64,000 nucleotides of DNA, taken from the NCBI GenBank assembly GCA_963827655.1, contig CAWHCF010000036.1, positions 64,001-128,000 of the forward strand, in the 5' to 3' direction. The notes under the pieces were generated by a model. That model did no database searches and had not been told where the DNA came from. It saw nothing but the letters and a program-made list of their open reading frames with translations. Positions 366 through 61,702 of this stretch are shown here, one piece after another. The stretch is from an uncultured Acidobacteriota bacterium (lineage in GTDB: Bacteria > Acidobacteriota > UBA6911). Each line of letters begins with the position of its first letter. The first letter of the stretch is position 1. A program made the position numbers and the translations under genes.

Positions 366-447
366 CCTAGCGTCTTCGCGTCTTCGTGGTGGGCTTTTGT
401 TTTCAAACGCTAACCACTATGACACGAAGACGCGAAGAAATGCTAAG
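366..447. repeat. 36-nt-arm inverted repeat (junction repeat 1)
   Basis: ctagcgt-cttcgcgt-cttcgtggt ... aaccactatg-acacgaag-acgcgaag-aaatgctaag. Confidence 0.85.
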
Positions 448-482
448 CCCTGTTACTGTTCTTAGGATTCCAGATTGGCTGT

Positions 483-872
483 GTGCGCGGCGACCACCTG
501 CCAGCCAACCTGTCGTTTCACCCAATCGCGGAGTTTCGGAAAGTCATCGCTCTGGTCGGTGGCAGCGCCCCTATCGAGACCAGTGTCAAGGCCTTGATGG
601 GATACGCCTACGCCCTGTCTGGAGATAGAAGCCAGGCCATCAAGCTGATTGATGAAATATCCGATCCAAGTCAGCCGGAGGCACCGCCCTATTCGATAGC
701 GGGAATCTATGCCGCCCTTGGTGAAACCGATCGGGCCTTCGAGTGGCTCAACAGGGCATATCACGGTCGCAGCTTTCAACTGGTCGGTCTGAAAGTGGAT
801 CCAATCCTGGACAACCTGCGCTCCGACCCACGATTCAAGGATCTGCTTGATCGCATTGGACTCGCACATTGA
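483..872 (+). pseudogene. C-terminal TPR fragment of a kinase/TolB-TPR protein, 5' truncated
   Basis: YSIAGIYAALGETDRAFEWLNRAY...LKVDPILDNLRSDPRFKDLLDRIGL is the usual C-terminus of these proteins; no N-terminal domains. Confidence 0.75.
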
Positions 873-944
873 GCACGATCGCGAACTGCAAGTCAGTTTT
901 GACGGCTCTCGGCGTGGCAGTTATTTGGTTGCGGGCGAGCGTAG

Positions 945-977
945 CGTCGTGTTTCTTCGTGTCTTTCGTGATATTAG
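945..977. repeat. Single left arm (junction repeat 2)
   Basis: cgtcgtgttt-cttcgtgt-ctttcgtgata, about 10 nt from the RES stop. Confidence 0.7.
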
Positions 978-987
978 TTTCGCGGGA

Positions 988-1674
988 CTAGGGGCGCACT
1001 CGGATATGCGGCGGAGCGAATGCATTAACGAATGTGATTGATACTCGGGATCCTTTCCGAACATTGTTGACCAGGGCCGGCCGAAAACACGCAATACAGG
1101 TACCGCCCTGGTGGCGGACGCTCGGGTAGACAATACCAGCCGACCCTCCGTCAACAAGCTCCCTCGCCAACTGCTGGGAAGCGGCGTAGCTGTCCGGAGC
1201 CAGACACTTTCTGAACCGGGAATCTTCACGAATGTCGTGAAATTCACCTCGGAAGTCTGCCAGGAAGTCGACGAAGACGAATGTTTCTTTGTTGCGCCAA
1301 TTGATCTCTTGCAGCTCTCGCGACTTGTGAAATGCAACCTCCTGGCTCGATGTTTCGAGCGACAAGGCCGCGTACCACGCGCCGCGGTCCGGCCCATTAA
1401 AACGGCTTCCCAGTGGGTGCGGATGGGTGAATGCGGCATTGACAATGTGGCAATAAGAAAGTCCGAACACGAGCTCCCTTACCGAAATCCCGGGCAGAAG
1501 CCCTGCTTCACCCTGAAGACGCCCATTGGTCGCCCCCTCCAGTTCGAACAGAACGCTTAGCTTTTCGGGGTCGCTGGTGAGCCGGTTGAGGACACTTTCA
1601 TTGGCATCGGTGAATGCGGCAGCAATCAGACGATGGGTATCGTCTTGAAGAAGACGGGAAACGCGGGGACGCAC
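988..1674 (-). CDS. RES-domain toxin (NAD+ phosphorylase type)
   Basis: SRFNGPDRGAWYAA, SSQEVAFH, YAASQQLARELVDGGSAGIVYPSVRH; abuts an Xre antitoxin. Confidence 0.9.
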   Translation of the reverse strand: MRPRVSRLLQDDTHRLIAAAFTDANESVLNRLTSDPEKLSVLFELEGATNGRLQGEAGLLPGISVRELVFGLSYCHIVNAAFTHPHPLGSRFNGPDRGAWYAALSLETSSQEVAFHKSRELQEINWRNKETFVFVDFLADFRGEFHDIREDSRFRKCLAPDSYAASQQLARELVDGGSAGIVYPSVRHQGGTCIACFRPALVNNVRKGSRVSITFVNAFAPPHIRVRP

Positions 1675-11675: not shown

Positions 11676-11706
11676 CGTTCTTCGAGTCTTCGCGTCTTAG
11701 AGGTTG
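11676..11706. repeat. Single left arm (junction repeat 3)
   Basis: cgtt-cttcgagt-cttcgcgt-cttagaggtt directly after the stop at 11675. Confidence 0.75.
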
Positions 11707-15018: not shown

Positions 15019-15153
15019 CGGAACCTCCCGTCAGTCAAGCAGGCGGAGCATTTGTGGGACTTACTCGCCGGGACAAACCATCAGAATCCTTTTAGGCGAG
15101 TTCGTGCCCCAATGTAGCCGTGCCTCTCTCACGAATGTCAAGCACTTGGGATA

Positions 15154-15230
15154 CTTCGCGTTTCTTCGTGTCTTGGAGTCTTCGTGGTTAGTGCAACCTC
15201 CAAGACACGAAGTCTCGAAGAAACGCTAAG
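15154..15230. repeat. Complete two-arm hairpin (junction repeat 4)
   Basis: cttcgcgttt-cttcgtgt-cttggagt-cttcgtggtt agtgc aacctccaag-acacgaag-tctcgaag-aaacgctaag. Confidence 0.9.
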
Positions 15231-20422: not shown

Positions 20423-20576
20423 GCAGTAGGCAGTTGGACCAGTGCCGTTTTTCCGCCTACTGCCTACAGATGCTTCGCATTTCTTGGTGACCTGGAGTCT
20501 TCGTGGTTAGCGCTAAGACACGAAGAATTGCCAAGAACCTTGTCAATCGTCAATCGTAATCGTAAATCGTCAATCC
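20416..20576. repeat. Composite junction: GCAGTAG inverted array, junction repeat 5 and TCAATCG array
   Basis: gcagtaggcagtaggcagt..gcctactgcctac; arms at 20473-20535; tcaatcg tandem at 20542-20576. Confidence 0.85.
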
Positions 20577-22091: not shown

Positions 22092-22257
22092 AGGGTTTCT
22101 TGCGTCGTCGCGTCTTAGTGGAATTTGTTCCCCCGCACTAAACCACGAAGACGCAAAGACGCTAAGGTTCGTTCGGGGACTTCGCCCCGAACGAAGGCCC
22201 CTTCTGAACGACAACATGTTGGTTTGAACGTTTCGCCAAGCGCCTAAGAAAGCGAAG
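22092..22257. repeat. Two-arm hairpin (junction repeat 6) hosting element copy A
   Basis: Left arm ...cgtcgcgt-cttagtgg; right arm aaccacgaag-acgcaaag-acgCTAAG[..]aaagcgaag. Confidence 0.85.
22162..22248 (+). mobile_element. 82-bp CTAAG-flanked hairpin element, copy A
   Basis: CTAAG gttcgttcggggacttcgccccgaacgaaggccccttctgaacgacaacatgttggtttgaacgtttcgccaagcgc CTAAG. Confidence 0.85.
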
Positions 22258-27695: not shown

Positions 27696-27863
27696 CGGGT
27701 GTTTCTTCGTGTCTTGGTGCCTCGTGGTATTTCTCTTGGAGGGCTAACCACGAAGACACGAAGAAACACTAAGGTTCGTTCGGGGACTTCGCCCCGAACG
27801 AAGGCCCCTTCTGAACGACAACATGTTGGTTTGAACGTTTTGCTAAGCGCCTAAGACTGCAAG
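27696..27863. repeat. Two-arm hairpin (junction repeat 7) hosting element copy B
   Basis: gtgttt-cttcgtgt-cttggtgc-ctcgtggta ... aaccacgaag-acacgaag-aaacaCTAAG[..]actgcaag. Confidence 0.85.
27769..27855 (+). mobile_element. 82-bp CTAAG-flanked hairpin element, copy B
   Basis: Differs from copy A at two positions near the right end. Confidence 0.85.
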
Positions 27864-28701: not shown

Positions 28702-28734
28702 CTTCTGGTAGTGTCTTGGCGTCTTCGTGGTTAG
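28702..28734. repeat. Single left arm (junction repeat 8)
   Basis: agtgt-cttggcgt-cttcgtggttag. Confidence 0.7.
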
Positions 28735-35001: not shown

Positions 35002-36339
35002 TTGGCCCGAACCGCTGCTGAGCAACCCCAAGTCCAGACTGGCCGCCGCCGCGAACCCCGGAACCGGCTTCCGGTCCGGTACAGCGTGGTGGCCTTTGCG
35101 GTCTCGCTCGCGATGCTGACATACCTGGACCGAGTCTGCATCTCGGCCTTGTCGTCCGCCATCATGGGAGACCTTGCTCTGTCGCGGCTCCAAATGAGCT
35201 ACGTCTTCAGCGCTTTCACGCTGTCGTACGGCATCTTTGAGATTCCCACGGCCTGGTGGGCGGACCGCGTCGGCAGCCGGCGGGTGATCGCACGGATCGT
35301 AGCCTGGTGGTCCGCCTTTACCGTGGTTACCGGAGCGGCGTGGAGCTACGGGTCTCTGCTCGTCATTCGATTCCTGTTCGGCGTGGGCGAGGCCGGAGCC
35401 TGGCCCAACGTCGCGCGGGTGTTCTCGCGCTGGATTCCCGCCGGCGAGCGCGGCACGATGCAGGGAATTTTCTTTGCCGGCGCTCACCTGGCCGGCGGCC
35501 TTACGCCGATCCTGGTGTTCACGCTCAGCAAGTGGTTGGGATGGCGGGCAATTTTCGTGATCTTCGGCCTGATCGGATTCCTCTGGGCCTGGTGCTGGTA
35601 CCGGTGGTTCCGTGACGAGCCCGCAGAGCACCCCTCCGTGGGCGAGGCCGAGCGCCGCAAGATCGAGGCCGAGCGCGGCCTTCCTCCGCAGCATCACCTC
35701 GCCGGTTTCCGGTGGCGCACTCTCCTGGGCAACCGCAGCGTGCTGGCGCTGTGCGCGTCCTATTTCGCCAACGGATATGGCTTCTACTTCGTGATCACGT
35801 GGCTGCCGGCGTACCTGGCGAAGGCCCGCGGCTTCGAGAGCGTCGAACTGGGCCTGTTTGCCGGGCTGCCGCTGATCCTGAGCGTGGTATCGGACATCGG
35901 CGGCGGGTGGACGACGGACCGCCTGTGCCGCCGATTCGGCTTGCGGCCGGGTCGCTGCGCCGTCGGCTCGGGTGCGAACCTGCTGGCCGCCCTTGCCATG
36001 CTCGCGGGCGCCGCAACGGCCGACTCCAGAGTAGCGGCGCTCCTGATCGCTGTCGCCCTCGCCTCATCTATGTTCACGCTCGGTCCGAGCTGGGCCGCAT
36101 GTATCGATATCGGCGGACGAAGCTCCGGCGTCGTCAGCGCGGCTATGAATACGGCAGGCCAGGTCGGCGGGATCCTGAGCCCGATTGTCCTTGCCCTTGT
36201 CGTCGACCGATTTGCCAACTGGGCCATCCCCCTCTACCTGATGGCCGGTCTCTACCTGATGGCGGCCATTGTGTGGCTCGCGGTGCGTCCGGACCTCAAG
36301 ATTGGAGAAGGCGCTGCAACGCCTTCCTCAGGCCCTTAG
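35002..36339 (+). CDS. MFS transporter (ACS, sugar-acid type)
   Basis: TYLDRVCIS, RFLFGVGEAGAWP, MNTAGQVGG; the stop lies in the element's CTTAG. Confidence 0.9.
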   Translation: MARTAAEQPQVQTGRRREPRNRLPVRYSVVAFAVSLAMLTYLDRVCISALSSAIMGDLALSRLQMSYVFSAFTLSYGIFEIPTAWWADRVGSRRVIARIVAWWSAFTVVTGAAWSYGSLLVIRFLFGVGEAGAWPNVARVFSRWIPAGERGTMQGIFFAGAHLAGGLTPILVFTLSKWLGWRAIFVIFGLIGFLWAWCWYRWFRDEPAEHPSVGEAERRKIEAERGLPPQHHLAGFRWRTLLGNRSVLALCASYFANGYGFYFVITWLPAYLAKARGFESVELGLFAGLPLILSVVSDIGGGWTTDRLCRRFGLRPGRCAVGSGANLLAALAMLAGAATADSRVAALLIAVALASSMFTLGPSWAACIDIGGRSSGVVSAAMNTAGQVGGILSPIVLALVVDRFANWAIPLYLMAGLYLMAAIVWLAVRPDLKIGEGAATPSSGP

Positions 36340-36422
36340 GCGCTTGGTGAAACGTTCAAACCAACATGGTGTCGTTCACAAGGGGCCTTTCGTTCGGGGC
36401 GAAGTCCCCGAACGAACCTTAG
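36335..36422 (-). mobile_element. 82-bp CTAAG-flanked hairpin element, copy C, in a degenerate arm (junction repeat 9)
   Basis: Reverse complement of A/B; followed by cgt-cttagcggtc. Confidence 0.85.
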
Positions 36423-36448
36423 CGTCTTAGCGGTCAGCGTAGCTCCCC

Positions 36449-37297: not shown

Positions 37298-37364
37298 TTT
37301 GTCTTAGTGGTTAGAGCTGTCTAACAAACACCACTAAGACTCAAAGACACGAAGAAACACCAAG
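37298..37364. repeat. Two-arm hairpin (junction repeat 10)
   Basis: ttgt-cttagtggttag ... caccactaag-actcaaag-acacgaag-aaacaccaag. Confidence 0.85.
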
Positions 37365-47382: not shown

Positions 47383-47398
47383 CAGTGTCTTAGTGTTT

Positions 47399-47483
47399 CT
47401 TAGGCGCTTAGCGAGACGTTCAAACCAATATGTTGTCGTTCATAAGTGGCCTTCGTTCGGGCGAAGTGCCCGAAGTACCTTAG
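47399..47483 (-). mobile_element. 82-bp CTAAG-flanked hairpin element, copy D, inside an arm (junction repeat 11, 47385-47504)
   Basis: cttagtgttt-CTTAG[..]CTTAGtgt-cttcgtgt-cctggtggta. Confidence 0.8.
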
Positions 47484-47556
47484 TGTCTTCGTGTCCTGGT
47501 GGTATTTGTTTCGCATCCAACAAGCAGAGAACCTGGTCGAACGATCCGTCCTGGCA

Positions 47557-49324: not shown

Positions 49325-49891
49325 TCACGCGCCGCCGCGCGGCGGGTGCGTCGGCAGAGAAGCATGAATCTGCGCCCACTCTCTGAGGGCCACGAATTGC
49401 CGGAGCATCTGTTCGTACGTGAAGTGCGCATTGCGCCCGCTGGGATTGGGGACCACAAACACGGAGATTCCTTCGATTGACTCGTCCTGCAGACCGCAGC
49501 GCAGAGCGCGGCGGGTCTGTATCATTTCGCGGAAGACCATCAGGCCCACGGCAGCAATTATCTGAGGGCGGTGCTTCCTGATTTTCCGCAGGAGAGCGCG
49601 GCGGCCGCGCGCGAAATCTTCAGGCCGAAGATCGCCGGCGCCGGCAGTCGGGCGGCTGACCAGGTTCGTGATCCCAAGGCCGTAATTGGGCAGGTCTTGG
49701 TCGTTCGCGAAGCCCGCGCCGCGTGGAAGGAAGCCGGCGCCGGACATCAGGCGCCAGAACTTGTTCGTGTGGCCCGCGAAGTGATGCCCCACCTCGGCCG
49801 AGCGCAATCCCGGATTCAGCCCGACGAACAGGATGCGGCAATCGTCAGGGATCCAGTCCGGCAGCCCAACTTCTTTGAGTCTTCGTGTCAC
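49325..49891 (-). CDS. mug: G/U mismatch-specific DNA glycosylase
   Basis: GLNPGL, GHHFA, NKFW, PNPSGRN. Confidence 0.92.
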   Translation of the reverse strand: MTRRLKEVGLPDWIPDDCRILFVGLNPGLRSAEVGHHFAGHTNKFWRLMSGAGFLPRGAGFANDQDLPNYGLGITNLVSRPTAGAGDLRPEDFARGRRALLRKIRKHRPQIIAAVGLMVFREMIQTRRALRCGLQDESIEGISVFVVPNPSGRNAHFTYEQMLRQFVALREWAQIHASLPTHPPRGGA

Positions 49892-49999
49892 CAGTCGGTA
49901 TTCTCTCTCTTAATTGGGATTCTTGGTGTTTCTTCGTGTCTTCGTGTCTTGGTGGTATTTGTTTCGCTGCGCTAACCACGAAGACGCGCATAAAACGAA
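49872..49999. repeat. Arms at the mug start plus a hairpin (junction repeat 12)
   Basis: ctttgagt-cttcgtgt; cttggtgttt-cttcgtgt-cttcgtgt-cttggtggta ... aaccacgaag-acgcg. Confidence 0.85.
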
Positions 50000-50043
50000 G
50001 TGGTACACTGCGCGCATATCGATCTTGAAGGAGGGCCCGCAAG

Positions 50044-52328
50044 GTGAAGCCAAGAACCGTCGCAGTGATCTGGATCACGATTGGAACAATACTGGTCGGA
50101 GCGCGCGCAGCCGAGACCCCCAGGAGCGTGCCTGGGCAGGCCGCGGCCCCGACGTCATGCAATGCGACCTCTCCGGGTATAAGGAAGCGCCCGGACTGAA
50201 GGCCGAAATGAGCAGCGGCGCGCTGCGCGTCACCTGGCAAGGCTCCCAGGGACAGGAGCTGCGTGTGATTTTCAGTCTGCTCAACGGCGCGCCGATCATC
50301 AGAGAGATGGCGGTCCGGCGGCAGGGCGCGCAGTGGGTCGTGCTGGGACGCGACCTCAGCCCCGAGTTTCATGTCACCGCCGGGCGGCGCCGCATTTCGG
50401 AGCAGCAGCTCGCACCGCTCCGCCAGCTGGGCCTGGACCGCGACCCGGAACTGCTCGAGCGTGAAAAGTGGAAGGTCTTCTGGGATGCGCCGCTCGTGAT
50501 TCCGGGGAGCAGCGGAACCAACCCCGGGCTTCCTCGCAGCCCGGAGGAAATCCGCCGTTCCGCAGCGACCTACAACTCGACCGGGTGCCAGGTGAAGACG
50601 GACGGCGCGCGGCTGGAAGTGACGTTCCCAGGACTCTCGATGGGAATCTTCTCGGGGCGCCTGCAGTTCAGCGTCTACAAGGGAACCAACCTGCTGCGCC
50701 AGGAGGCGATCGCAAAAACCGACGAACCCTCGATCGCTTATCACTACCGCGCCGGACTCAAAGGATTCCGGACCGACACGGCCAGGCGTGTCATCTGGCG
50801 GGACGTCGCGCGCGGCTGGCAGAAGTATGAGTTTGGCGGATCGCCCAATACCGACCCGGTGGCCCTCCGGGCCCGTAACCGACTGGCGATCGTCGAGACT
50901 GCCGGCGGCTCGGTCGCGGTGTTTCCCCCTTCTCACAAGTTCTTCTTCGGGCGCGAAATCGAGCTGAACCTGGGTTACGTCTGGTACCGCAAAGACGACG
51001 CCGGCTCGTTCTCGGTGGGCGTGCGCCAGGCCGATCGCGAGGAGATGTACCGCCCCTTCGGCTTCTCGGATGATCTGTGGCAGCGGCGGTCGCGGCAGGC
51101 GCGCAGCTTCGCGATGGGGAACTTTGCCCTCTACAACGCGCCTCCGGGGACCTGGCAACGAATGGCGGCTTACTACTATCTGAGTCCGGAGCCTGGTCCC
51201 GCCACCCAGGAAACGGTAATGCAGTTCACGCACGACGATCGGTACAAGTCGATCCCCGGCTTCCAGGTGGCTGTCAGCCACTTCCACACGCACTTCCACG
51301 AGCAGGTGCTGGACGCCGGAGGCATCGACTCCCAGCCGCCGTGGATCCCCACGTTTCGGGCGCTCGGAATCAACATCGCGATGATGTCCGATTTCCACGG
51401 CGATGGCCACCCGAAGGATCCAGGACCGCTGCGGCTCAAAGAGCAGAAGGCCTACTTCGATGCCTGCCGCCGCCACTCCGATCGGGAATTTCTGATCATG
51501 CCCGGCGAGGAGCCGAACGCCCACTTCGGCGGACACTACACGACAGTCTTTCCTCGTCCGGTGTACTGGACTCACGTCCGCCAATCGGGACAGCCGCTGG
51601 TCGAGAACCATTCCGAGTACGGCAAGGTGTACCACGTGGGGTCTCCCGCCGACGAACTGCAGATGCTGACGTCGGAGAATGGGCTGGTGTGGCAGGCTCA
51701 TCCCCGGACCAAGGGCTCGAGCGGCTATCCCGATGCGCTCCGGCAAACGGATCATTTCAAGAGCGATCGGTTCCTGGGCGGGGCATACCAGTCCCTCCCG
51801 GTCGATCTCTCCGAGAGCCGGCTTTGCGAGGTCCGCTGCCTGGGAACCCTGGACGACATGAATAACTGGGCAGGGCCGAAGTACCTGGTGGCCGAGGGCG
51901 ACACGTATGCCAAATTCCCGGACGACGACAGCTATCAACACCTGATGGTGAACTACATCAAGCTGGACCGGTTGCCCGCCTTCGACGAAGACTGGATGCC
52001 GATCGTGAAGTCGATGCGGGCCGGCGACTTCTTCGTCACGAGCGGCGAAGTGCTGTTCAAGAGCTTTGGCCTGGAAGGCTCGGGCGATCAGCGAACCATC
52101 GTGGCGGATCTGGAGTGGACGTTCCCGCTGGAATTCGTCGAGGTAGTCTGGGGCGATGGCCAGAAGACCGATCGCAAGATCATCCCGGCCACCGATCAGC
52201 CGCCGTTCGGCAGTCACCGCTTCCGAATTCCGTTCGACGCGGCCGGGAAGAAGTGGGTGCGGTTTGCGGCGTGGGATTCCGCCGGCAACGGCGCATTCTG
52301 GCAGCCGGTGCACTTGCGGCGTAGGTAA
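50044..52328 (+). CDS. Secreted hypothetical protein with PHP-like metal motifs, frameshift near the start
   Basis: GTG start with AAGGAGG and signal peptide; HFHTH, SDFH, PGEE, AHP, EGD. Confidence 0.7.
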
Positions 52329-52362
52329 CCACGAAGACGCCAGGACGCGAAGAAACACCAGG
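52327..52362. repeat. Single right arm (junction repeat 13)
   Basis: aaccacgaag-acgccagg-acgcgaag-aaacaccagg fills the gap between convergent stops. Confidence 0.85.
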
Positions 52363-52367: not shown

Positions 52368-54048
52368 TCAGAACGGCATCCGCAGGAACTGGATGATCTG
52401 ACTGAGAGCGAGAAGCTTCAGCCTGGCATCCGGGAGCGACCGGACGTAAGTTAGTGCGCCGGCGAAGTTATCGCGGGCATACTCGGCAACCAGCATCGCC
52501 TCCAGGTGGTCGGCCGGGCCCGCAGGAAATCGCGTAGGGACCCATGCCTCCTTGGGGAAACGGAACCATGCCTCCTTGGGGGAAGGGACCCCCGGAAACG
52601 CCAAAACCGAAACCCGCAGCCTGCCCCTGTTGTTCTTCCCGCAGGTCGGAGGCCAGGATGAACCCTTCCTTCAGGAGTCCGGGATCTACCTCACCGTCAA
52701 CCATGCGGTAGGCGCGGACGAGCATCTGCAGGTTCGTGGCTCTTCGGGTCTTCGGCTCGATTTTCGGCAGGAGCGCGCGTGCGGCGTCCAGGGCCATCAC
52801 GGCAAGATCCGGATCCTCCCAGTTTACCCGCTGCGCAAACTGGATGAGGGCGTCGGCGCTCGCGGGGTCCTGGGCGATCTCGGCGATTTTCTGGCGGCCC
52901 GCGGCCGGGTCGCGCCGGGCTGCGGTGCGCACTTCGTTATAGAGCTGATTCGAGGGGTGACTGGAGGAGTAGGTGTTCGGACCCGCTGGTCCGCCTGGTG
53001 GCATCCCACCGCCTCCCCAGCTCCGCGAGCCCATTCCTGCGCCGGTTAGGCTGACACGCTGGCCGCTCGAGAAAACCGTATCGATGCCCCCCATCCGATC
53101 GAGCTTTGCCTTCAGATCGGGAGCCTGGGCTATGAACTTCGAGGCAAGATCGAAACGGCCTCCCGACGCCTGGACCGCATTGAGAAGCACCGTTTCCCCG
53201 GCAGTGAGGTCGATGCTCCGCTCACCCACGGTGAGCCGACTGCCTGCCTCCTGGTTCATGCCGGCCGCGCCTCGGGCCAATGACGCGAAGGCCTCGGCTG
53301 CCTTGGCCGGGTCGATTGCCGCCGTGTGCATCATGAGCTGCCCGTACTCGTGCGACTTCTTTATGTCGAGTGTCGATGCGGCCAGGTCGCGAAGGGTCTG
53401 GTCCAGGATCTTTGAGGCTTGCTCCTTGCTACCCGTGGCAGCCAGGTGCTGGGCGATGCGTCCTCGGGCGGCCCAGCTCTCGTCGCCCCCCTCCGCCAGG
53501 AGCGCCGCGGCCCGTTCCGGGTCGCGCATGGCGAGCGTGTTCAGGGCCTGCTGCCGGAACTGCGATTCCATCTCACGCCGGGCAGCCTCGCCCGCCTCGC
53601 CGGCGCGCGACGGGGGCGCCGGCCAGGTTCGGATCAGCTCCTGGGCCCGGTCGAAGTCGATCTCGGAGTAGGCGGATGCAAGCGACTGCGCCGCCTGGGT
53701 CGCGCTCTGGTACCCGCGGGCATCCTCGGCGTTCCCCGCCGCAGTCCGCAGCGCCCGGTAGAGTTCCTCCAGGTTCGGCTTCGCCTCGGGGCGGTTGATC
53801 TGAACCCAGCTCTGGGCAACGGGACCGATCAGCAAGGCGCTTGCCGCATCGACCCGCCGGGCCAGCTCGGTGGCCTCACGAAGGGCGAGGCGCATGTTCT
53901 GGAGCCGCTCGGGCGTGACACGAAGCCGATGGGCGGCGCGCTTGAGCTCGCGAGAGCCCGGCGCCACCACAGCCACCTGGGCCCAAAGTGTCGATGCCAC
54001 AACCAGCACAGCGATTGTGCCCTGGGCGATGGAACGGAAGGTATGCAT
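52368..54048 (-). CDS. Secreted helical-repeat hypothetical protein, frameshift near the 3' end
   Basis: Signal peptide, Ala-rich helices; C-terminus GPADHLEAMLVAEYARDNF in the next frame. Confidence 0.65.
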
Positions 54049-54120: not shown

Positions 54121-54290
54121 CCTTGTGTTTCTTTGCGTCTTTGCGTCCTGGTGGCATTTTGTTTAGCTGTCGTACCACGAAGACTCGAAGACTCTAAGGT
54201 TTGTTCGGGGACTTCGCCCTGAACGAAAGCCCCCCTGTGAACGACAACATGCTGGTTTGTACGTTTTACTAAGCGCTAAGAAATACGAAG
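54121..54290. repeat. Two-arm hairpin (junction repeat 14) hosting element copy E
   Basis: ccttgtgttt-ctttgcgt-ctttgcgt-cctggtgg ... taccacgaag-actcgaag-actCTAAG[..]aaatacgaag. Confidence 0.85.
54194..54280 (+). mobile_element. 82-bp CTAAG-flanked hairpin element, copy E
   Basis: Diverged copy; tttgttcgggg/ccctgaacgaa stem. Confidence 0.8.
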
Positions 54291-56914
54291 ATGACCGAAC
54301 GCCTGCCAATCTACGAAATTGAGAACGAATCATCGCCATGACGGAGGCTGCTCTGCCTATCATTCCCAATCGCGAGAACACGCCTGCCGATCTACGAAAT
54401 CGAGAACGAAATCATCGCCAGATTGAAGGCGGCCAGGCGTCTTGTGCTCCAGGCGCCTACCGGCTCCGGCAAATCCACACAAGTACCTCAGATGCTGCTC
54501 GAACACGGATTGCTCGACAACGGCCGGGTGGTGATTCTCCAGCCACGGCGGCTTGCTGCGCGATTGCTCGCAGCGCGCGTGGCGCGCGAACTGGAGGTGG
54601 AACTTGGGCGTGAGGTCGGTTACCAGGTGCGATTCGAGAATGCGACCAGCGAGGCCACGCGCATCAAGTTCGAAACCGAAGGAATTCTGCTGCGCCAGTT
54701 GATCCAGGATCCGGCCCTCACTCGGAATTCAGGCGTTGATCTTCGACGAGTTCCACGAACGGCATCTCTACGGCGACATTACCCTGGCGCGCGCGCTGGA
54801 CATCCAGGAACAGAGCCGGCCCGACCTGCTCATCATCGTGATGTCCGCCACACTCGATGCAGGGGCGCTGGAAGAGTATCTCTCGCCCTGCGCGGTCCTG
54901 ACCTCTGAAGGGCGGACGTTTCCGGTAAACGTGGACTATCTGCCGCAGTCGACTGGGCAGCAATGCGCCACCCGTATGGGATCTTGCTGCCGATGCATTT
55001 TCAAAATACGCGCGCGCTGGCGACGGCGATGTCCTCATTTTCATGCCGGGCGGATACGAAATCAGCCGGACCATCGAAGCCATCCGACACAAGCGGGAAG
55101 CCAAGGGCTACATTCTTCTCCCCCTGCACGGCGAATTGCCGCCCCGGGATCAGGACGCGGCTGTGGCGCGCTACACTCAGCCGAAAGTTGTGGTCGCAAC
55201 CAATGTCGCCGAGACATCCATTACCATCGACGGCGTGCGGTTGGTGATCGATAGCGGCCTCGCGCGCATCGCGCGCTACGATCCTAATCGCGGGATCAAC
55301 ACCCTGCTGGTGGAACGGATCAGCCGATCCAGTTCCGAGCAGCGGGCCGGTCGCGCAGGACGCACGGCGCCGGGACAGTGTTCGAGGCTTTGGTCGAGGC
55401 CCGAGCAGGAGGAAAGGCCCCAGCAGGAATTGCCTGAGATCAAGCGGCTCGATCTCTCCGAAGTGATCCTTACGCTCAAGGCGACCGGGGTAGAAAACCT
55501 GCGTAAGTTTCGCTGGCTGGAAGCGCCGAGTGACACGGCTCTGAATCATGCCGAGGAGTTGTTGTGCGATCTGGGAGCCCTGGCGCATGAAGCACACCAT
55601 ACCGTGATTACCGAACTCGGCCGCCGCATGCTCGCGTTTCCGGTCCATCCCCGCTACGCTCGCATGTTGCTCGCGGCGCAGGAATATGGCTGCGTTTATC
55701 AGGCGTGTCTCGTGGCGGCGCTGACTCAAGGACGCGACCTGCTTCTGCGGAATCCGAGCAAGGATGTGTCGGCGGCGCGCGAGGATTTGTTTGGCGACAA
55801 GAATTCGTCCGATTTTTGGATTCTCATGCAAGCGTGGAATTACGCCTCGAGGAATCAGTTCCGGATGGATGCTCTTGGCAAGCTCGGCATTCACGGTGTC
55901 ACGGCGCGGCAGGTTGGGCCGCTGCACTCCCAATTCCTGCGAATCGCCCGTGAGGAAGGTCTCGACATCGAGCAGCGCGAGATCAAGGATGAGGCCCTGC
56001 GGAAGTGCATTCTCATTGGTTTCAGCGATCGCGTGGGGCGGATCGATCAGGACACGCGGCGGTGCGAACTTGTGCATGGCCGGAGAGGCACGCTGGCGCG
56101 GGAAAGCGTGGTGCGACAGAGCTCTCTCATCGTGGCGGCGGAGATTCAGGAACTAGGCGGTCGCCCGGGCGAAGTGAATACGATTATCTCCCTTGCCACT
56201 GCGATCGAACTCGAGTGGCTGCGTGAACTTTTTCCGAACGACATGCAGACGGAGGTGCGGGTCGCCTTTGATTCCGCAACCAGGAGGGTACAGGCGCACG
56301 ATTCTCTGCGTTTCCGGGATCTGGTGGTGGCTGCCAGGCGCGTGGAACCGCCGCCGGCCGATGCCGCCGCGCGGTTACTTGCAGAGGAGGTCAGCGCCGG
56401 GCGACTGCGGTTGCCGAACTGGGATCACGGCGTCGAGCAATGGATCCTCAGACTGAATCTGCTCGCGCAATGGTGCCCGGAGCTCGAACTGCCGCCAATT
56501 CGAGTGGAGGACCGGCAACATATCGTCGAGCAGATCTGTCTCGGCGCACTGGGCTACAAGGATATTAAAGACCGGGACGTGAAGCCCGTGGTCAAATCCT
56601 GGCTTTCGGCCAGTCAACGTGCACTGCTCGACAAGCACGCGCCCGAGCGGGTCACTCTTCCCAACGGACGGACGCCCAAGGTGGCTTACGAGGCATCCGG
56701 GCCGCCCTATATTTCATTGCGAATACAGGAACTGTTCGGCGTGACAACAACCCCCAGAATTGCGCTGGGCCGGGTGGCGCTCAGCGTCCACATTCTGGCC
56801 CCAAGCATGCGACCCGTGCAGGTTACCCAGGACCTGGCGAACTTCTGGCGCGAACATTACCCTCGGCTTAAGTCCGAGCTGCAAAGGAAGTATCCCAAGC
56901 ATGAGTGGCGCTGA
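54291..56914 (+). CDS. hrpB: ATP-dependent RNA helicase HrpB, frameshifted
   Basis: APTGSGKST, QPRRLAAR, DEFHER, MSAT, ATNVAETS, QRAGRAGR, RKYPKHEW. Confidence 0.93.
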
Positions 56915-58783: not shown

Positions 58784-58858
58784 TCTGGCGTTTCTTGGTG
58801 TCTTCGCGTCTTGGCGGTATTTTTTCCGCAGCACAAACCACCTGAGAATCCGAAGAAG
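58784..58858. repeat. Left arm plus degenerate right arm (junction repeat 15)
   Basis: tctggcgttt-cttggtgt-cttcgcgt-cttggcggta. Confidence 0.8.
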
Positions 58859-58881
58859 ACTTGGTTGGGGCCGGTGGCTTC

Positions 58882-60438
58882 CTACTCAGACGGCTTCGGG
58901 GCCAGGTCTCCAAAGAGATCGGTGTACAGAGCCTCCACGCGAGTTGCTTCTTCCTCGGTCAGCGCTTGAAACTCCTTCTCACGAGCGCGTCTTGACAGAT
59001 GTCCACCGCCTTGCGCGAGAAACCCGCGAAGCCGATCGACTTCCCGGTCCGGCATCTCGACAATCTCCTTTACCGCTGCCGAGAATTTGTCGAATCTTTC
59101 CAGGAAATGGACTTCTTCCGGGAGATCGTGCTCCACGGTCTGCTCGACGCATGAATAGAGAAATTCGGCATGCGCGGTTGCGTCGAAATAGCGATAGTAA
59201 TCGGCTGTGTCGTTCATGACTTCCACGTTGCCATCCGTTGTGGCGCGCCATTCGATGAACGGCAAAAGGGCCGCCGAGTACGACTCGAGCACAGCTCGAT
59301 ACTCATCGAGCCGCCGAAGAATGGCCGCACTGATCGGAAACACGATGCCGGGCGGGTTGTACCCCGCCGTGGCGAGCACGTGATGAATCAGCCACCGATG
59401 CAGGCGGCCATTGCCATCGACGAACGGATGGACGTAGACAAATCCGAACGCCATGGCGGCAGCGGCAGCAACGGTATCAACACCACCCGAGAGTGAACGG
59501 CCATCATATTCAATAATGCCGCCGAGCAGATCTCTGAGATCCTGCGGCCGCGCGCTGATGTGGTTAGGGACGGGTTCCTGTGTGTCCCTGTCGTGTGTCC
59601 CGACGAATCCGTTTTGATCGCGGAGTCCGAGCTTCACAAAGCGTGCATCGCCAATGACGATACGCTGAAGCCGTTCCAATTCGTCGATCGTGATCGGGCG
59701 AACACCCGCCTCGCCAATCGCGCGGGCCCACCGCGCGGCTCGGGCGCTTGACGGACGTTCACCCTCGATCGCGAAGGAGGATTTTGAGTCGCTGAGAAGA
59801 AGAAATGCCGCGGCCCTTGTAACGAGGTCCCTTCGTGTCCGACCGATGATTTCGTGGGCGCGGGAGTCGAGTCCTTTCGCGACGGCTGCTCTAAGCGCGG
59901 GCGTCCATCGAATCATGGGACAAAAGCCGCGCGTTCCAGGCAGATTGTCGATTATCTTGTGGCGCGACGATCGTGCGCCCTTCTTGAGAGCGACCTGCTG
60001 TTCCGGGTCGACGATTGCTATAACGCGAACCTTGCCAGGATCTGGCAGGTCGAGCTCACGTCCGGTAAGCCACTCATAGAGAAACCAGATCCTGCGCGCG
60101 AAAGCTCCCGTTGGCGTTGCCCGTACAACAGCGGCGACCTCTTTGGGCTCCACGACCTTGAAGAGAGCTGCCAGGACACCGAGAGCGACACCTTCCCACT
60201 TCAATGCGAAGACGAGCTGTCCCCCGAGCGTATCGGGAGGACGATGACGCGGTGTCAGGAACTGCCAGGACGGGTTCGGTGCAGGGTGGTGTCGCTCGGC
60301 AATGGCGGTCAGCCGGGGAGGCATGGGAACTGCCAGGTCGAAGCGTTCTATGAGTGCGGCATAACCTGCGGGAATCCCAGGTTCAGACAGCGGTCGTCCG
60401 TGAAAATGATTCACCAGCTGCGAAGGCCAATCACTCAT
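58882..60438 (-). CDS. Fic-domain protein
   Basis: HPFVDGNGRLHR; SSFAIEGE. Confidence 0.93.
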   Translation of the reverse strand: MSDWPSQLVNHFHGRPLSEPGIPAGYAALIERFDLAVPMPPRLTAIAERHHPAPNPSWQFLTPRHRPPDTLGGQLVFALKWEGVALGVLAALFKVVEPKEVAAVVRATPTGAFARRIWFLYEWLTGRELDLPDPGKVRVIAIVDPEQQVALKKGARSSRHKIIDNLPGTRGFCPMIRWTPALRAAVAKGLDSRAHEIIGRTRRDLVTRAAAFLLLSDSKSSFAIEGERPSSARAARWARAIGEAGVRPITIDELERLQRIVIGDARFVKLGLRDQNGFVGTHDRDTQEPVPNHISARPQDLRDLLGGIIEYDGRSLSGGVDTVAAAAAMAFGFVYVHPFVDGNGRLHRWLIHHVLATAGYNPPGIVFPISAAILRRLDEYRAVLESYSAALLPFIEWRATTDGNVEVMNDTADYYRYFDATAHAEFLYSCVEQTVEHDLPEEVHFLERFDKFSAAVKEIVEMPDREVDRLRGFLAQGGGHLSRRAREKEFQALTEEEATRVEALYTDLFGDLAPKPSE

Positions 60439-60688
60439 CGTTCTCTCAGCGAAAAATCGTCATCACAAGCCGAGCCGACTAGTCTCAGAAGTGCGAATTT
60501 GTTTCACCATTTGCGACATACTATCACAATTGTCGATGAACGCGAAAATAGTTCACCGAGTGGTGTCCGGAACGATCAATGAGGGGAAGGATCGCGAATG
60601 AGGGTCTTTTGATAAGGGTGGAGGAAGCGCCGACAGAACCACTCAACTGGCTGGCGGACGCGGGAGCGCTACTCGGTTGAGAGAACAG

Positions 60689-61651
60689 CTACATTTCACA
60701 GGCACGCATCACGGTTTCCTGCACAAGCAGGTCTTCCTCCGGCGTCACCGAAAGCGGTTTCTTCAACCGCACCGCCTCTTCCAGCTCCGCGAAGTCGTCC
60801 ACGAAGCGGCGGTAGGAACGCACGGACACCGTCTGCATCCCCTCCTGGTACGGTCCGGCAGCCTTTGCCAGGTCGATCGCCAGCGCCGGAGGTTCGATGG
60901 GCCGCACCACGGCCGTGCCGTTCGTCCCCAGAATCTCGAAGAACCGGTGCGGCCAGGCATTCGGCTGCAGTACCGCGGCGGTGATGATGGCCAGCGCCCG
61001 CGGATATTCCAGTACCGCTACCGTGTTGTCCATCAGCCGATCGTCAAACCGTCCGTGGCTGCGCAGGAATGGCGTCACCTTCTGCGGGCGCCCCAGGAGG
61101 CGCGCCGTGATGTCGATGATGTGCGAACCTTGCTCGAACATCTGCCCGCCTTTGAAGCGCGCCCATTCAGCCCGTGCCCGGGGCGCCACCAGCGTGTTCA
61201 TGGTGCCGCGCACAACGTAGATCTCGCCCAGCCACCCCTTGCGCCCGGCCTCGAGCGCTGCGTTGATGGCCGGATTGTAGCGCCACATGTACCCCATCTG
61301 AAGCAGCAGGTGCTTGCGCTGCGCGGCGTCCACCATGGAGCGGAACACCGCCAGGCGGTCGGCCGGTGGTTTTTCCAGGTGCACGTGCTTGCCTGCTTCG
61401 AGAGCCGCCTCGCCGTCGCGGTTGTGGTCGCGCACCTCGGATTCCACGGCGATCACCTGGATAGAGGAATCGTTCAGCACCTGGGCGCGCGAAAGCAGCG
61501 GGATGCCCGCTTTCTCATACGGCGCCCGGAACTCCGGATCGTCTTCGCTCACCCCCATCAGCTCCCAGCGTGGATTCTCCATGACCACTTTCGCTTTGTC
61601 GAAAGCGTGCGAGTGGCTGCCACCCAGAAATGCGATGCGGGTCCGATCCAT
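60689..61651 (-). CDS. Gfo/Idh/MocA oxidoreductase
   Basis: GKHVHLEKP, QMGYMWRYNP, GGQMFEQGSHIID. Confidence 0.92.
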   Translation of the reverse strand: MDRTRIAFLGGSHSHAFDKAKVVMENPRWELMGVSEDDPEFRAPYEKAGIPLLSRAQVLNDSSIQVIAVESEVRDHNRDGEAALEAGKHVHLEKPPADRLAVFRSMVDAAQRKHLLLQMGYMWRYNPAINAALEAGRKGWLGEIYVVRGTMNTLVAPRARAEWARFKGGQMFEQGSHIIDITARLLGRPQKVTPFLRSHGRFDDRLMDNTVAVLEYPRALAIITAAVLQPNAWPHRFFEILGTNGTAVVRPIEPPALAIDLAKAAGPYQEGMQTVSVRSYRRFVDDFAELEEAVRLKKPLSVTPEEDLLVQETVMRACEM

Positions 61652-61664
61652 GCGTCTAACAAAT

Positions 61665-61702
61665 GACCACGAAGAACTCACAAGACACGAAGAAACACCA
61701 AG
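61665..61702. repeat. Single right arm (junction repeat 16)
   Basis: gaccacgaag-aactcacaag-acacgaag-aaacaccaag. Confidence 0.85.

What the first reader, a model, noticed from the sequence alone, without database searches (positions are those of the whole stretch)
366..61702. A fixed-architecture 36-nt repeat arm marks ~16 junctions between unrelated gene modules: possible integrase-free cassette system
Seen: arms with 10-8-8-10 consensus AACCACNAAG-ACNCNAAG-ACNCGAAG-AAACRCYAAG at 366, 945, 11676, 15154, 20473, 22092, 27696, 28702, 36327, 37298, 47385, 49872, 52327, 54121, 58784 and 61665. They occur as inverted pairs around a short variable loop or as lone arms. The AAG phasing is conserved while the other positions vary. 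They sit at module edges and I saw none inside the multi-gene operons. The genes between them are functionally unrelated, are often stripped of their usual partners (E2 without E1/E3, kinase without response regulator), and are mixed with TA loci and remnants. Inference: the arms may be recombination or insertion sites that shuffle genes, analogous to attC or REP sites but with a different structure. From recollection, similar octamer repeats flank GxxExxY nuclease genes, a possible trans-acting factor; no such gene is in this window.
Basis: partly seen in the sequence, partly recalled or inferred. Interest (0 to 1): 0.85.

Follow-up and report, generated by a model that had tools for sequence, protein, structure and literature searches.

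The report
Orphan ends of GxxExxY mobile elements
The repeated 36-base arms are gene-less copies and leftovers of the inverted ends of a small nuclease-carrying mobile element, scattered by the hundreds through this soil bacterium's genome, and not the borders of a gene-cassette system.

Summary
All 16 loci carry the arm, and 6 near-consensus copies stand against 0 in 100 shuffles. The arm is not special to this window. The 8.18-Mb genome, a Bryobacteraceae-like acidobacterium, holds 754-1,038 copies, 83% of them intergenic.

The cassette reading fails:
- Successive arms are randomly oriented.
- Arms lie between genes whose adjacency is conserved in another genus (4 of 19 spacers, about the genome-wide rate).
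- A clear 14.3-kb synteny break in the window has no arm at either edge.

In relatives, GxxExxY (PD-(D/E)XK) genes are bracketed by inverted arms of this design (24 of 30 loci across the phylum). Three filled, empty or solo-arm site comparisons show these units are discrete insertions. This genome keeps one broken GxxExxY gene.

The arms also serve as landing pads for a young 82-90-nt hairpin element that inserts after (CT)AAG. That element is absent from the same site in contigs of four soil metagenomes.

Verdict: an orphan, MITE-like repeat family. How it moves is inferred, not shown.

The parts
368..447 (.). Head-to-head arm pair: reverse arm 368-390, centre, forward arm 413-447. It lies between divergent genes.
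   Evidence: nhmmer E=6.8e-4 and 6.1e-8; sequence
947..965 (-). Partial lone arm (octamer plus tail)
   Evidence: nhmmer E=0.0074
11678..11704 (-). Lone arm, 3 nt after the stop codon of ORF 11055-11675
   Evidence: nhmmer E=7.3e-7
15154..15230 (.). Head-to-head pair (15154-15188 minus strand, 15196-15230 plus strand)
   Evidence: nhmmer E=8.7e-10 and 7.7e-9. Folds at -22.4 kcal/mol, z=-6.5.
20473..20535 (.). Head-to-head pair (20473-20507 minus strand, 20511-20535 plus strand). It is followed at about 20541-20585 by an unrelated TCAATCGT-type tandem array.
   Evidence: nhmmer E=1.2e-4 and 0.022
22108..22166 (.). Head-to-head pair with a decayed left arm (22108-22121) and forward arm 22142-22166
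   Evidence: nhmmer E=0.78 and 2.8e-4
22167..22256 (+). Nested hairpin element ('module 2'), inserted after ...CTAAG of the forward arm
   Evidence: 11-bp hairpin
27698..27773 (.). Head-to-head pair (27698-27722 minus strand, 27749-27773 plus strand)
   Evidence: nhmmer E=3.2e-4 and 7.5e-6. Folds at z=-6.6. Present in contigs of all 4 metagenomes laid.
27774..27863 (+). Module 2 copy, polymorphic in nature. Bases 27774-27855 (82 nt) are skipped in runs X1 and X2. Bases 27774-27863 (90 nt) are skipped in X3 and X5.
   Evidence: Joints 27768>27851 (slides by 5 nt) and 27770>27861 (slides by 3 nt), carried on contigs of 433-1,046 nt
28711..28731 (-). Lone arm (head plus one octamer)
   Evidence: nhmmer E=0.0026
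36327..36434 (-). Module 2 copy (36327-36417) behind a short arm (36418-36434)
   Evidence: nhmmer E=0.74 for the arm
37301..37364 (.). Head-to-head pair with the canonical centre. The left arm is reduced to 37301-37311. The right arm 37330-37364 is the best copy in the window.
   Evidence: nhmmer E=9.3e-11; centre match
47389..47504 (-). One arm split by a diverged module 2: tail 47389-47401, module about 47399-47478, head and octamers 47479-47504
49872..49988 (.). Partial arm 49872-49888 (minus strand), plus a head-to-head pair of 49922-49957 (minus strand) and a short 49975-49988 (plus strand)
   Evidence: nhmmer E=0.055, 4.5e-10 and 0.96; fold z=-2.8
52328..52360 (+). Lone arm, starting at the last base of the stop codon of ORF 49914-52328
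   Evidence: nhmmer E=2.3e-7. No self-structure (-1.9 kcal/mol, z=0.2).
54125..54198 (.). Head-to-head pair (54125-54154 minus strand, 54173-54198 plus strand)
   Evidence: nhmmer E=1.7e-5 and 1.5e-5; weak fold, z=-0.5
54199..54288 (+). Module 2 copy after ...CTAAG of the forward arm (end coordinate approximate)
58786..58819 (-). Arm. The centre and a decayed partner follow, to about 58850.
   Evidence: nhmmer E=3.8e-8
61682..61702 (+). Partial lone arm (octamer plus tail), preceded by a head-like ACCACGAAG
   Evidence: nhmmer E=0.0011

Best explanation
The arms are copies of a high-copy intergenic repeat family in a Bryobacteraceae-like acidobacterium.

Each arm is a T-free run of phased 8-nt units: a head [A/T]ACCAC-NAAG, one or two ACNC-NAAG units, and a tail AAACRC-YAAG. 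In related genomes the same design forms the terminal inverted repeats of a small element of about 650-900 bp. That element's only gene is a GxxExxY protein (TIGR04256 / PF13366), a 125-137-aa PD-(D/E)XK nuclease. The head lies outermost and the tail points at the gene.

Shown:
- Those elements are discrete insertions that are present, absent, or reduced to a gene-less arm palindrome at the same site in congeneric genomes.
- In this genome only one broken GxxExxY gene is left.
- The arms persist as orphan, MITE-like forms. These are about 95-nt head-to-head palindromes with a conserved centre, tail-to-tail palindromes, and solitary arms.
- The arms lie in intergenic DNA without regard to gene orientation or synteny.
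- The unit boundaries (after AAG) are insertion points for further small elements, including a young 82-90-nt hairpin element that is polymorphic in soil populations.

Inferred:
- The nuclease recognises the tandem units and cuts at the AAG boundaries, so that copies spread by break repair or transposition.
- Orphan arms were mobilised in trans or left behind by recombination between flanking copies.
- When transcribed, paired arms form long imperfect stems, like the RNase III-cut stems of 23S rRNA intervening sequences.

The unrelated neighbouring genes simply reflect that the repeats sit between transcription units.
For: Copy number and position:
- 696 copies match the consensus with up to 6 mismatches, and 1,038 have a head plus at least one octamer. 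An nhmmer profile finds 754 at E<=0.01.
- 865 of the 1,038 are fully intergenic, against 17% non-coding DNA.

Same design at GxxExxY genes:
- The broken GxxExxY gene at C19:35526-35878 is flanked by inward-reading arms.
- All 14 loci from 5 relatives show such arrays on at least one side, judged by eye.
- One gene in G007 scores E=6.5e-37 against TIGR04256 and has CACCGCGAAGACGCGAAG... arms.
- 24 of 30 loci from 30 genomes across the phylum have a flanking inverted repeat that scores above all 30 shuffles by more than 6. The heads are ACC[AG]C, followed by 3-4 tandem units.

Mobility of the class:
- G136 has a 649-bp insert (arms plus a GxxExxY ORF, with CAG(T) at both junctions) where G125 reads GCGCAT|CAGGCG. 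G089 has a 130-bp gene-less arm pair at the same site.
- G125 carries about 880 nt where G074 has 16 nt and G089 has 30 nt.
- G013 and G017 have palindrome-gene-palindrome where G023 has one solo palindrome.

Distribution in relatives:
- The arm pattern gives 620 hits in G000, 319 in G007 and 0-16 in the other 39 genomes. The reversed-pattern control gives 0.
- 11 of 13 arm-positive relatives have GxxExxY, against 11 of 27 arm-negative ones. G034, an unpublished genome, is among the 27.

Nested insertion after AAG:
- Of 51 module-2 copies, 45 follow AAG, 35 follow CTAAG, and 31 have an arm head within 26 nt upstream.
- Contigs from 4 metagenomes of 4 studies skip exactly 82 or 90 nt at 27774.
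- 35 of the 48 hairpins in G000 are identical. G007 has 1, and the other 39 relatives have 0.

The nuclease looks active: E32, D72, E82 and K84 are invariant in 22 sequences that are 61-96% identical to the G007 query.
Against: - No intact GxxExxY gene is in this assembly, which is 90% complete. There is therefore no trans-acting factor at hand.
- The commonest paired form here is head-to-head (132 strict pairs). The simple internal-deletion product of the element would be tail-to-tail, and only 25 such pairs were found. How the head-to-head unit arises is unexplained.
- No filled/empty comparison was obtained for an arm or pair of this genome itself. The pair at 27698-27773 is present in all 4 metagenomes laid.
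- Target-site duplications are unclear apart from CAG(T) in one case.
- The variable positions of the two arms of a pair are mostly not complementary, only 6-17 of 44. Two of four window pairs fold weakly. Selection for a stem is therefore not evident.
- Nuclease activity and cutting at AAG are inferred only. The structure model was poor, with pLDDT 50.
- The synteny sample is small (156 putative orthologs, 37 adjacent pairs), uses a home-made gene caller, and compares across genera.
Confidence: 0.65

Rival explanations
1. Host-kept structural or regulatory repeats, similar to BIME or REP elements. On this reading the arms and pairs persist because they help the cell, not because they move. 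They could act as RNA stems that end or stabilise transcripts, as RNase III processing sites, or as phased binding sites for an abundant DNA- or RNA-binding protein.
For: - Arms lie close to stop codons, at a median of 25-37 nt. They are somewhat enriched in convergent spacers: 24.5% of arms against 16.7% of intergenic bases.
- Two window pairs fold strongly, with z of -6.5 and -6.6.
- On the opposite strand, the module-2 hairpin followed by the T-rich arm complement scores as terminator-like.
- Termini of 23S intervening sequences that carry tandem heptamers are cut by RNase III (PMC4990558, passages read).
Against: - Arms show no orientation preference towards genes: 264 against 277 in tandem spacers.
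- Lone arms, 586 of the 754 profile hits, have no self-structure.
- The variable stem positions are not compensated.
- Distribution is patchy: 27 of 40 relatives have none.
- The sequences match the ends of demonstrably inserted elements.
Confidence: 0.2
2. A cassette or recombination-site system. On this reading arms are sites at which gene modules are excised, inserted and shuffled by a recombinase or nuclease encoded elsewhere.
For: - The E2 gene has an arm pair on each side, and it lacks the 533-aa and 823-aa neighbours that are conserved in 12 relatives.
- When G000 neighbours up to 3 genes apart are counted, arms lie in 6 of 10 non-conserved intervals against 5 of 40 conserved ones (Fisher p=0.004).
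- Single genes tightly bounded by a forward and then a reverse arm do exist.
Against: - The p=0.004 contrast disappears for directly adjacent genes with spacers of at least 50 nt: 4 of 19 against 1 of 4.
- Orientation of successive arms is random, so bracketing happens at the chance rate.
- A 14.3-kb synteny break in the window has no arms at its edges.
- Proteins between close forward-reverse arm pairs form no recurrent family: only 4 weak pairs among the set.
- No Pfam recombinase hit was found among the window ORFs scanned.
- In the 9.5 kb laid, the only well-supported joints at arm loci were the two that skip module 2 (side of 97-255 letters). Others touching arm coordinates had sides of 21 letters or foreign letters between them, as copies from other loci do. 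49 further joints were not shown.
Confidence: 0.05
3. A REP/RAYT or IS200/IS605-type single-strand system. On this reading arms and module 2 are moved by a Y1 (HUH) transposase, which inserts them 3' of a fixed short target.
For: - Module 2 has a hairpin at its left end, no terminal inverted repeat, inserts after CTAAG and ends in CTAAG.
- One Y1_Tnp gene exists, at C35:41745-42074.
Against: - That Y1 gene has no arm within 2.4 kb.
- No TnpB gene was found in the genome.
- No full-length parent with both module-2 ends was found.
- Orientation shows no bias against GC skew or gene-strand bias.
- Single arms are not palindromes, and neither end of the arm consensus carries a GTAG or CGTC tag.
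Confidence: 0.07

Closest known systems
23S rRNA intervening sequences (IVS) carrying an S23p / four-helix-bundle ORF (Coxiella, Leptospira and others)
   Same: - A small ORF is bracketed by complementary termini.
- The termini contain tandem 7-nt units whose number varies between strains.
- The elements are regarded as selfish, of unclear origin and possibly mobile (PMC4990558, passages read).
- In this genome all 11 PF05635 loci carry tandem arrays of short units, judged by eye: on both sides in 10 and on one side in 1.
   Different: - The window arms are not in rRNA; no Rfam family was hit in the window.
- They carry no ORF.
- The unit is the octamer ACNCNAAG.
- The associated gene in relatives is a PD-(D/E)XK nuclease, not S23p.
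- RNase III processing was not tested.
MITEs (miniature inverted-repeat transposable elements) and their parent insertion sequences
   Same: They are short, non-coding, high-copy and intergenic. They share terminal repeats with a gene-carrying element. Gene-less and gene-carrying forms are found at the same site in related genomes.
   Different: - The presumed parent encodes only a nuclease of about 130 aa, not a known transposase family.
- The terminal repeats are built from tandem octamers.
- The dominant local form is head-to-head, not the tail-to-tail form expected from internal deletion.
- A target-site duplication is not established.
REP / BIME elements with RAYT transposases
   Same: They are abundant extragenic repeats, often in inverted pairs, mosaic with other small motifs, and close to gene ends.
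   Different: - A single arm is not a palindrome.
- There is no GTAG or CGTC tag.
- The one Y1 transposase gene is not flanked by arms.
Integron attC sites and gene cassettes
   Same: Imperfect inverted repeats lie between unrelated genes.
   Different: - No integrase hit in the window ORFs scanned.
- No common cassette orientation.
- The sites are spread over the whole genome.
- Orientation is random.
IS200/IS605-derived palindrome-associated elements (for the nested 82-90-nt module only)
   Same: A hairpin at one end, no terminal inverted repeat, insertion right after a fixed pentanucleotide that also ends the element, and precise presence/absence.
   Different: No associated TnpA or TnpB, no strand bias, and most copies land inside arms.

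Membership tests
Terminal inverted repeats of GxxExxY (TIGR04256 / PF13366) elements | Head ACC[AG]C outermost, followed by 3-4 tandem 8-9-nt units that end in a purine-rich tetramer | tested here: met
   Arm consensus over 696 copies. The same layout is seen at 24 of 30 GxxExxY loci across the phylum.
Terminal inverted repeats of GxxExxY (TIGR04256 / PF13366) elements | Two arms in inverted orientation bracket a GxxExxY gene | tested here: not met
   No such gene among the 49 window ORFs scanned. The genome has one broken copy, and that copy is bracketed by arms. The window arms are therefore orphans.
Terminal inverted repeats of GxxExxY (TIGR04256 / PF13366) elements | The unit is a discrete insertion relative to an empty site | tested here: inconclusive
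   Met for three loci in other genera. For this genome only the nested module 2 is polymorphic; the pair at 27698-27773 is present in all 4 metagenomes laid.
MITE | Short, non-coding and high-copy, with terminal inverted repeats shared with a coding element | tested here: met
MITE | Target-site duplication of fixed length | tested here: inconclusive
   CAG(T) is repeated at one GxxExxY insertion. A 3- or 5-nt AAG/CTAAG ambiguity is seen at module 2. Nothing could be determined for arm pairs.
REP / BIME with RAYT | Each repeat unit is itself a 20-40-nt imperfect palindrome | tested here: not met
   Lone arms fold at 0 to -1.9 kcal/mol, with z of 0.2 to 0.95.
REP / BIME with RAYT | A conserved GTAG or CGTC tag at one end (definition taken from the abstract of PMC3733652, seen in the search listing) | tested here: not met
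   The consensus ends are [A/T]ACCAC and CYAAG.
REP / BIME with RAYT | A Y1 transposase gene flanked by the repeats | tested here: not met
   There is one PF01797 match, and its nearest arm is 2.4 kb away.
Integron cassette array | Integrase and attI next to an array of co-oriented cassettes, each ending in one attC | tested here: not met
   No integrase hit among the window ORFs scanned. Arms show no orientation rule. There are 754-1,038 sites genome-wide. A genome-wide integrase search was not done.
IS200/IS605-type palindrome-associated element (module 2 only) | A subterminal hairpin, and insertion 3' of a fixed tetra- or pentanucleotide without terminal inverted repeats | tested here: met
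   11-bp hairpin. 35 of 51 copies follow CTAAG and 45 of 51 follow AAG. Precise 82- and 90-nt absence.
IS200/IS605-type palindrome-associated element (module 2 only) | A cognate TnpA (Y1) or TnpB element with the same ends, and a strand bias relative to replication | tested here: not met
   The assembly is 90% complete, so absence is not proven.
23S rRNA intervening sequence | Inserted in helix 25 or 45 of 23S rRNA and excised by RNase III | tested here: not met
   No rRNA or other Rfam family is found in the window, and the arms are intergenic. RNase III cutting cannot be tested with these tools.

The most novel reading that the evidence does not exclude
GxxExxY elements may be an undescribed class of autonomous bacterial mobile element. 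Each is about 650-900 bp and carries a single PD-(D/E)XK nuclease of about 130 aa. On this reading the nuclease reads terminal repeats built from tandem octamers and cuts at the unit boundary (after AAG). The arms of this genome would be its MITE-like progeny. They would have expanded to about 1,000 copies, outlived the nuclease gene, and now serve as landing pads where further small elements nest and where arrays grow or shrink by whole octamers. The S23p-type intervening sequences of 23S rRNA would then be a sister branch of the same kind of element.
Probability: 0.3. Interest if true: 0.75.

Novelty: new variant of a known kind. Interest (0 to 1): 0.5.

Why it matters
For this window, the result replaces an attractive but wrong reading (a gene-cassette system) with an ordinary one: a dispersed MITE-like repeat family.

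The wider point is less ordinary. GxxExxY proteins form a very large, highly conserved family. At least 7,975 proteins score E<=1e-10, and listed hits annotated as Chloroflexota, Anaerolineae and WOR-3 are 63-66% identical to the G007 query. Their function is listed as unknown (PMC3424549, passage read).

The filled, empty and solo-arm sites found here, together with the shared octamer-built ends, make a concrete hypothesis testable. The hypothesis is that these are small nuclease-driven mobile elements, related in design to the long-unexplained intervening sequences of 23S rRNA.

Full-text searches of the held library found no paper describing the association between the repeats and the gene:
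- 'GxxExxY'.
- PDDEXK_3 / PF13366 / TIGR04256.
- Four-helix-bundle and IVS-protein terms.
- Acidobacteria with intergenic repeat and palindromic.

The association may be mentioned in curated family notes. I recall this but could not see the notes.

Practically, about 1,000 near-identical short repeats also explain assembly breaks and coverage spikes in soil metagenomes. In the metagenome contigs, the bins holding the arm loci at 20473, 22108 and 27749 reach depth 101-550, against about 5-15 elsewhere.

Tried and rejected
- Rfam scan of the window at gathering thresholds: no match.
- RNA-type covariation in pairs. G-T (64+8 cells) and A-C (78+30 cells) mismatches are about equally common, and the N positions are mostly mismatched. 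There is therefore no strand-specific wobble signal.
- Replication-strand bias of lone arms, oriented pairs and module 2 against GC skew and gene-strand bias: none that is convincing.
- Search for a full-length parent of module 2, meaning a left hairpin and a right end within a few kb: none found.
- Recurrent gene families between close forward-reverse arm pairs: only 4 weak matches.
- Apparent collinearity of the 804-aa ORF (49914-52328) with G007 and G002, suggested by weak tblastx hits. tblastn did not confirm it, so it was dropped.
- AlphaFold2 model of a GxxExxY protein from a 22-sequence alignment: mean pLDDT 50.3. This is too poor for a fold search, so none was run.
- No PDB relative by sequence at E<=1.
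- No PADLOC or PHROG family.
- Promoter and terminator consensus scan of 15000-29000: counts near the shuffle expectation. The only hit at an arm locus is the module-2 hairpin.
- Joints in the metagenome contigs such as 27773>28712 and 28734>27750 have only about 21 letters on one side, or foreign letters between. I read them as copies of the repeat from other loci, not as rearrangements.
- Supplementary files of papers were not opened. Those of PMC3424549 and PMC3733652 may list repeat or context data for these families.
- The synteny test across E2 with 13 Bryobacterales loci showed no shared neighbours at all. It could therefore not serve as a fine test.

Full report
OBSERVATION

The window is G000:C36:64001-128000 of an 8.18-Mb, 53-contig, 59% G+C assembly. 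The titles of 13 loci holding homologues of the window's E2 gene place it among Bryobacterales / Bryobacteraceae, Acidobacteriota. Gene content agrees: a MacB/FtsX duplicated permease, OMP_b-brl_4 barrels and Ser/Thr kinases with TPR repeats.

The 36-nt consensus hits 6 times at up to 3 mismatches, against 0 in 100 shuffles. A profile built from 405 genomic copies hits all 16 named loci, with 28 hits at E<=10 in the window. Over 696 genomic copies the AAG columns are 75-99% conserved, 94-99% in the two central octamers, and the N columns are mixed.

The arm is a whole-genome feature, not a local one:
- 1,038 copies have a head plus at least one octamer (HO 412, HOO 337, HOOT 257, HOT 28).
- 754 profile hits reach E<=0.01.
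- 865 of the 1,038 are fully intergenic, against 17% non-coding DNA. This uses my own rough gene caller, which called 7,122 genes.

ANATOMY

The forward strand of an arm contains no T and has no self-structure.

Pairs are head-to-head: reverse arm, centre, forward arm. The centre is conserved and asymmetric, with 68 copies of GTGGTTAGAGCTGTCTAACAAATACCAC at up to 3 mismatches. The pair is therefore copied as one unit of about 95 nt. There are 132 strict head-to-head pairs and 25 tail-to-tail pairs.

Two of four window pairs fold strongly (z -6.5 and -6.6) and two weakly. In 44 well-formed pairs the N positions of the two arms are complementary in only 6-17 cases, with no strand-specific wobble.

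A second repeat, which I call module 2, has 51 copies. It starts with a perfect 11-bp hairpin and ends in ...CTAAG, usually followed by CGCCTAAG. Of the 51 copies, 45 follow AAG, 35 follow CTAAG, and 31 have an arm head within 26 nt upstream. It lands after the first octamer, after the second, or after the tail.

A longer composite is itself nested in a forward arm, after ...AAG, and ends in ...CAAAG. It consists of a small GTGA-loop hairpin, the pair, and two small hairpins.

The rule seen throughout is that insertions follow NAAG and end in NAAG.

IS IT A CASSETTE SYSTEM?

No.
- Arms show no orientation rule towards genes. In tandem spacers 264 point at a gene start and 277 at a gene end.
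- Successive arms are randomly oriented. Lone-lone transitions are +- 118, -+ 112, ++ 117 and -- 120. A pair is followed by a closing arm 37 times and a non-closing arm 31 times. Genes are therefore bracketed by inverted arms at the chance rate.
- I fetched 1.2 Mb of G002, a genome of another genus in the same family with 0 arm hits. It gave 156 putative orthologs. Among directly adjacent G000 gene pairs with spacers of at least 50 nt, arms lie in 4 of 19 whose adjacency is conserved and in 1 of 4 whose adjacency is not. The genome-wide rate for such spacers is 14-16%.
- One of those four arms sits in a 55-nt spacer between two co-directional genes that are 84% and 77% identical to their G002 counterparts.
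- A looser count does differ, 5 of 40 against 6 of 10 (p=0.004). It includes intervals with one or two genes in between, so it is confounded by interval length.
- Window genes 31493-32635 and 46890-47159 abut in both G002 and G007. Here they are 14.3 kb apart, and neither boundary carries an arm.
It also lacks the 533-aa and 823-aa neighbours that follow E2 in 12 relatives.
- No Pfam recombinase hit was found among the 49 window ORFs scanned; ten of them had no Pfam hit at all.

WHAT THE ARMS ARE

The genome has one PF13366 gene. It is broken into three fragments with a stop codon, at C19:35526-35878. It is flanked by a forward arm on one side and a reverse arm on the other, both reading inward.

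In five relatives, all 14 PF13366 loci show such tandem-unit arrays on at least one side, judged by eye. One G007 gene scores E=6.5e-37 against TIGR04256 and has CACCGCGAAGACGCGAAG... arms.

Across the phylum, 40 of 121 genomes have the family at E<=1e-20. Of 30 loci from 30 genomes, 24 have a flanking inverted repeat that scores above all 30 shuffles by more than 6. The layout is the same: ACC[AG]C outermost, then 3-4 tandem units such as AGAG-ACCAC, GGAG-ACAC or AGATGAAC.

The arm pattern itself gives 620 hits in G000, 319 in G007, 16 in G010 and 10 or fewer in the rest. It gives 0 in 27 of 40 relatives, and the reversed-pattern control gives 0. GxxExxY is present in 11 of 13 arm-positive and 11 of 27 arm-negative relatives. 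Related genomes are not independent observations. The unpublished genome G034 is one of the 27; without it the count is 10 of 26.

THE CLASS IS MOBILE

Three comparisons within other genera show this.
1. G136 carries a 649-bp insert holding a GxxExxY ORF and inverted arms, with CAG(T) at both junctions. The insert lies between two genes that are translationally coupled in G125, which reads GCGCAT|CAGGCG there. G089 has a 130-bp gene-less tail-to-tail arm pair of another unit type at the same junction.
2. G125 has about 880 nt containing a GxxExxY gene where G074 has 16 nt and G089 has 30 nt. G136 has a 370-nt insert there that I read, by eye, as encoding a helix-turn-helix protein.
3. G013 and G017 have palindrome-GxxExxY-palindrome between a histidine-kinase gene and a response-regulator gene, both named from their printed sequences without a domain search. 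G023 has a single solo arm palindrome at that site. This looks like loss of the gene by recombination between the two flanking palindromes. That reading is my inference.

IN THIS LINEAGE

Contigs from four soil or rhizosphere metagenomes, from four studies, match window stretches between 27164 and 28478 with few differences. They keep the arm pair. They skip exactly 27774-27855 (82 nt; X1 and X2; the joint can slide over CTAAG) or 27774-27863 (90 nt; X3 and X5; the joint can slide over AAG). Module 2 is thus a discrete insertion that is polymorphic in nature, and the two empty forms differ by one octamer.

Its 29-nt hairpin occurs 48 times in G000, 35 of them exact. It occurs once in G007 and not at all in 39 other relatives. 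This points to a young, lineage-specific burst.

MECHANISM (INFERRED)

The GxxExxY family is very large and conserved. At least 7,975 proteins score E<=1e-10, and the listed hits annotated as Chloroflexota, Anaerolineae and WOR-3 are 63-66% identical to the G007 query. In 22 sequences E32, D72, E82 and K84 are invariant. I read this as an intact E...D...ExK nuclease signature, on the basis of recalled knowledge of the PD-(D/E)XK fold. Pfam lists the function as unknown, with multiple transfers (PMC3424549, passage read).

The most likely working model has four parts:
- The nuclease binds the tandem units and cuts at the unit boundaries.
- The element is copied into new sites by break repair or transposition.
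- Gene-less pairs are moved in trans, or arise by recombination.
- Orphans outlive the gene.

None of this was shown here. The abundance of the head-to-head form over the tail-to-tail form remains unexplained.

I found no sign of a Y1 or TnpB partner:
- The one Y1 gene is not near any arm.
- There is no TnpB gene.
- No full-length parent of module 2 was found.
- There is no strand bias.

COMPARISON WITH KNOWN SYSTEMS

The nearest described relatives in design are the 23S rRNA intervening sequences. They have a small S23p ORF and complementary termini forming a 28-bp stem. They carry tandem heptamers whose number varies between strains, and they are excised by RNase III. Their origin is unclear, and a mobile origin has been proposed (PMC4990558, passages read).

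In this genome all 11 PF05635 (S23p-type) loci carry tandem arrays of short units, judged by eye: inverted arrays on both sides in 10 and an array on one side only in 1. The unit differs between genes, though a few loci share one.

The arms fail the defining tests for REP/RAYT elements and for integron cassettes. They meet most tests for MITEs.

Full-text searches found no paper describing the link between the repeats and the GxxExxY gene. For those searches only listings or short passages were seen. I recall that curated family notes may mention the link.

VERDICT

The cassette interpretation is not supported. The arms are orphan, MITE-like copies of the octamer-built ends of GxxExxY elements, and they also act as landing pads for a second small element.

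Noticed in passing
window 20541-20585; G000:C26:290717-291013: A different tandem array (TCAATCGT / ATTGACGA units) lies right behind the arm pair at 20473-20535. These are the most over-represented 8-mers of the genome, about 1,400 copies against about 150 expected. In inverted form they flank a four-helix-bundle (PF05635) gene elsewhere.
   Followed up: partly
G000: 11 PF05635 loci (for example C51:53465, C25:45220, C14:39149, C26:213018, C6:206841): By eye, every S23p-type four-helix-bundle gene has tandem arrays of short units beside it, on both sides in 10 of 11 loci. The unit differs between genes, though a few loci share one: CAGRAGY, CACGNN, GTTCCC, TCATTTNT, GATTGCG. The arm family appears to be one of several such families.
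   Followed up: partly
window 32636-46889: A 14.3-kb block separates two genes that are adjacent in G002 and G007. The block holds a HigB-HTH pair, two MFS transporters, homoserine dehydrogenase, a PD40 protein, an amidohydrolase and others. Neither boundary has an arm or any repeat that I could see.
   Followed up: partly
window 11887-14114; 17883-20422; 55043-56914: Apparent broken genes: an OMP_b-brl_4 barrel in two ORFs, a MASE1 histidine kinase in two ORFs, and an HrpB helicase lacking its N-terminal core. These could be real pseudogenes or assembly frameshifts.
   Followed up: no
window 20790-22085: The lone E2 acyltransferase gene is followed in 12 Bryobacterales relatives by conserved 533-aa and 823-aa genes. 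The best matches to those genes in this assembly are only 33-36% identical and lie on another contig.
   Followed up: partly
window about 25247-25334: Metagenome contigs pile up here, at depth 66-131 against about 5-15 nearby, with loose ends at 25296 and 25334. This suggests another short high-copy repeat, at the 3' end of ORF 25247-26146.
   Followed up: no
L143 / L148 (G125:C1 about 61.8 kb; G136:C39 about 18.7-19.2 kb): One gene junction in another acidobacterial genus is empty in two genomes. It holds a GxxExxY element in a third. A fourth has a 370-nt insert that I read, by eye, as encoding a HigA-like helix-turn-helix protein. This may be a hotspot for small selfish genes.
   Followed up: partly
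window 49914-52328 and 52468-54048: Two long ORFs of 804 and 526 aa have no Pfam match. Each is bounded by arms.
   Followed up: no
window 27775-27802 (minus strand): Read on the opposite strand, the module-2 hairpin is followed by the T-rich complement of the arm. It scores as an intrinsic-terminator-like site.
   Followed up: no
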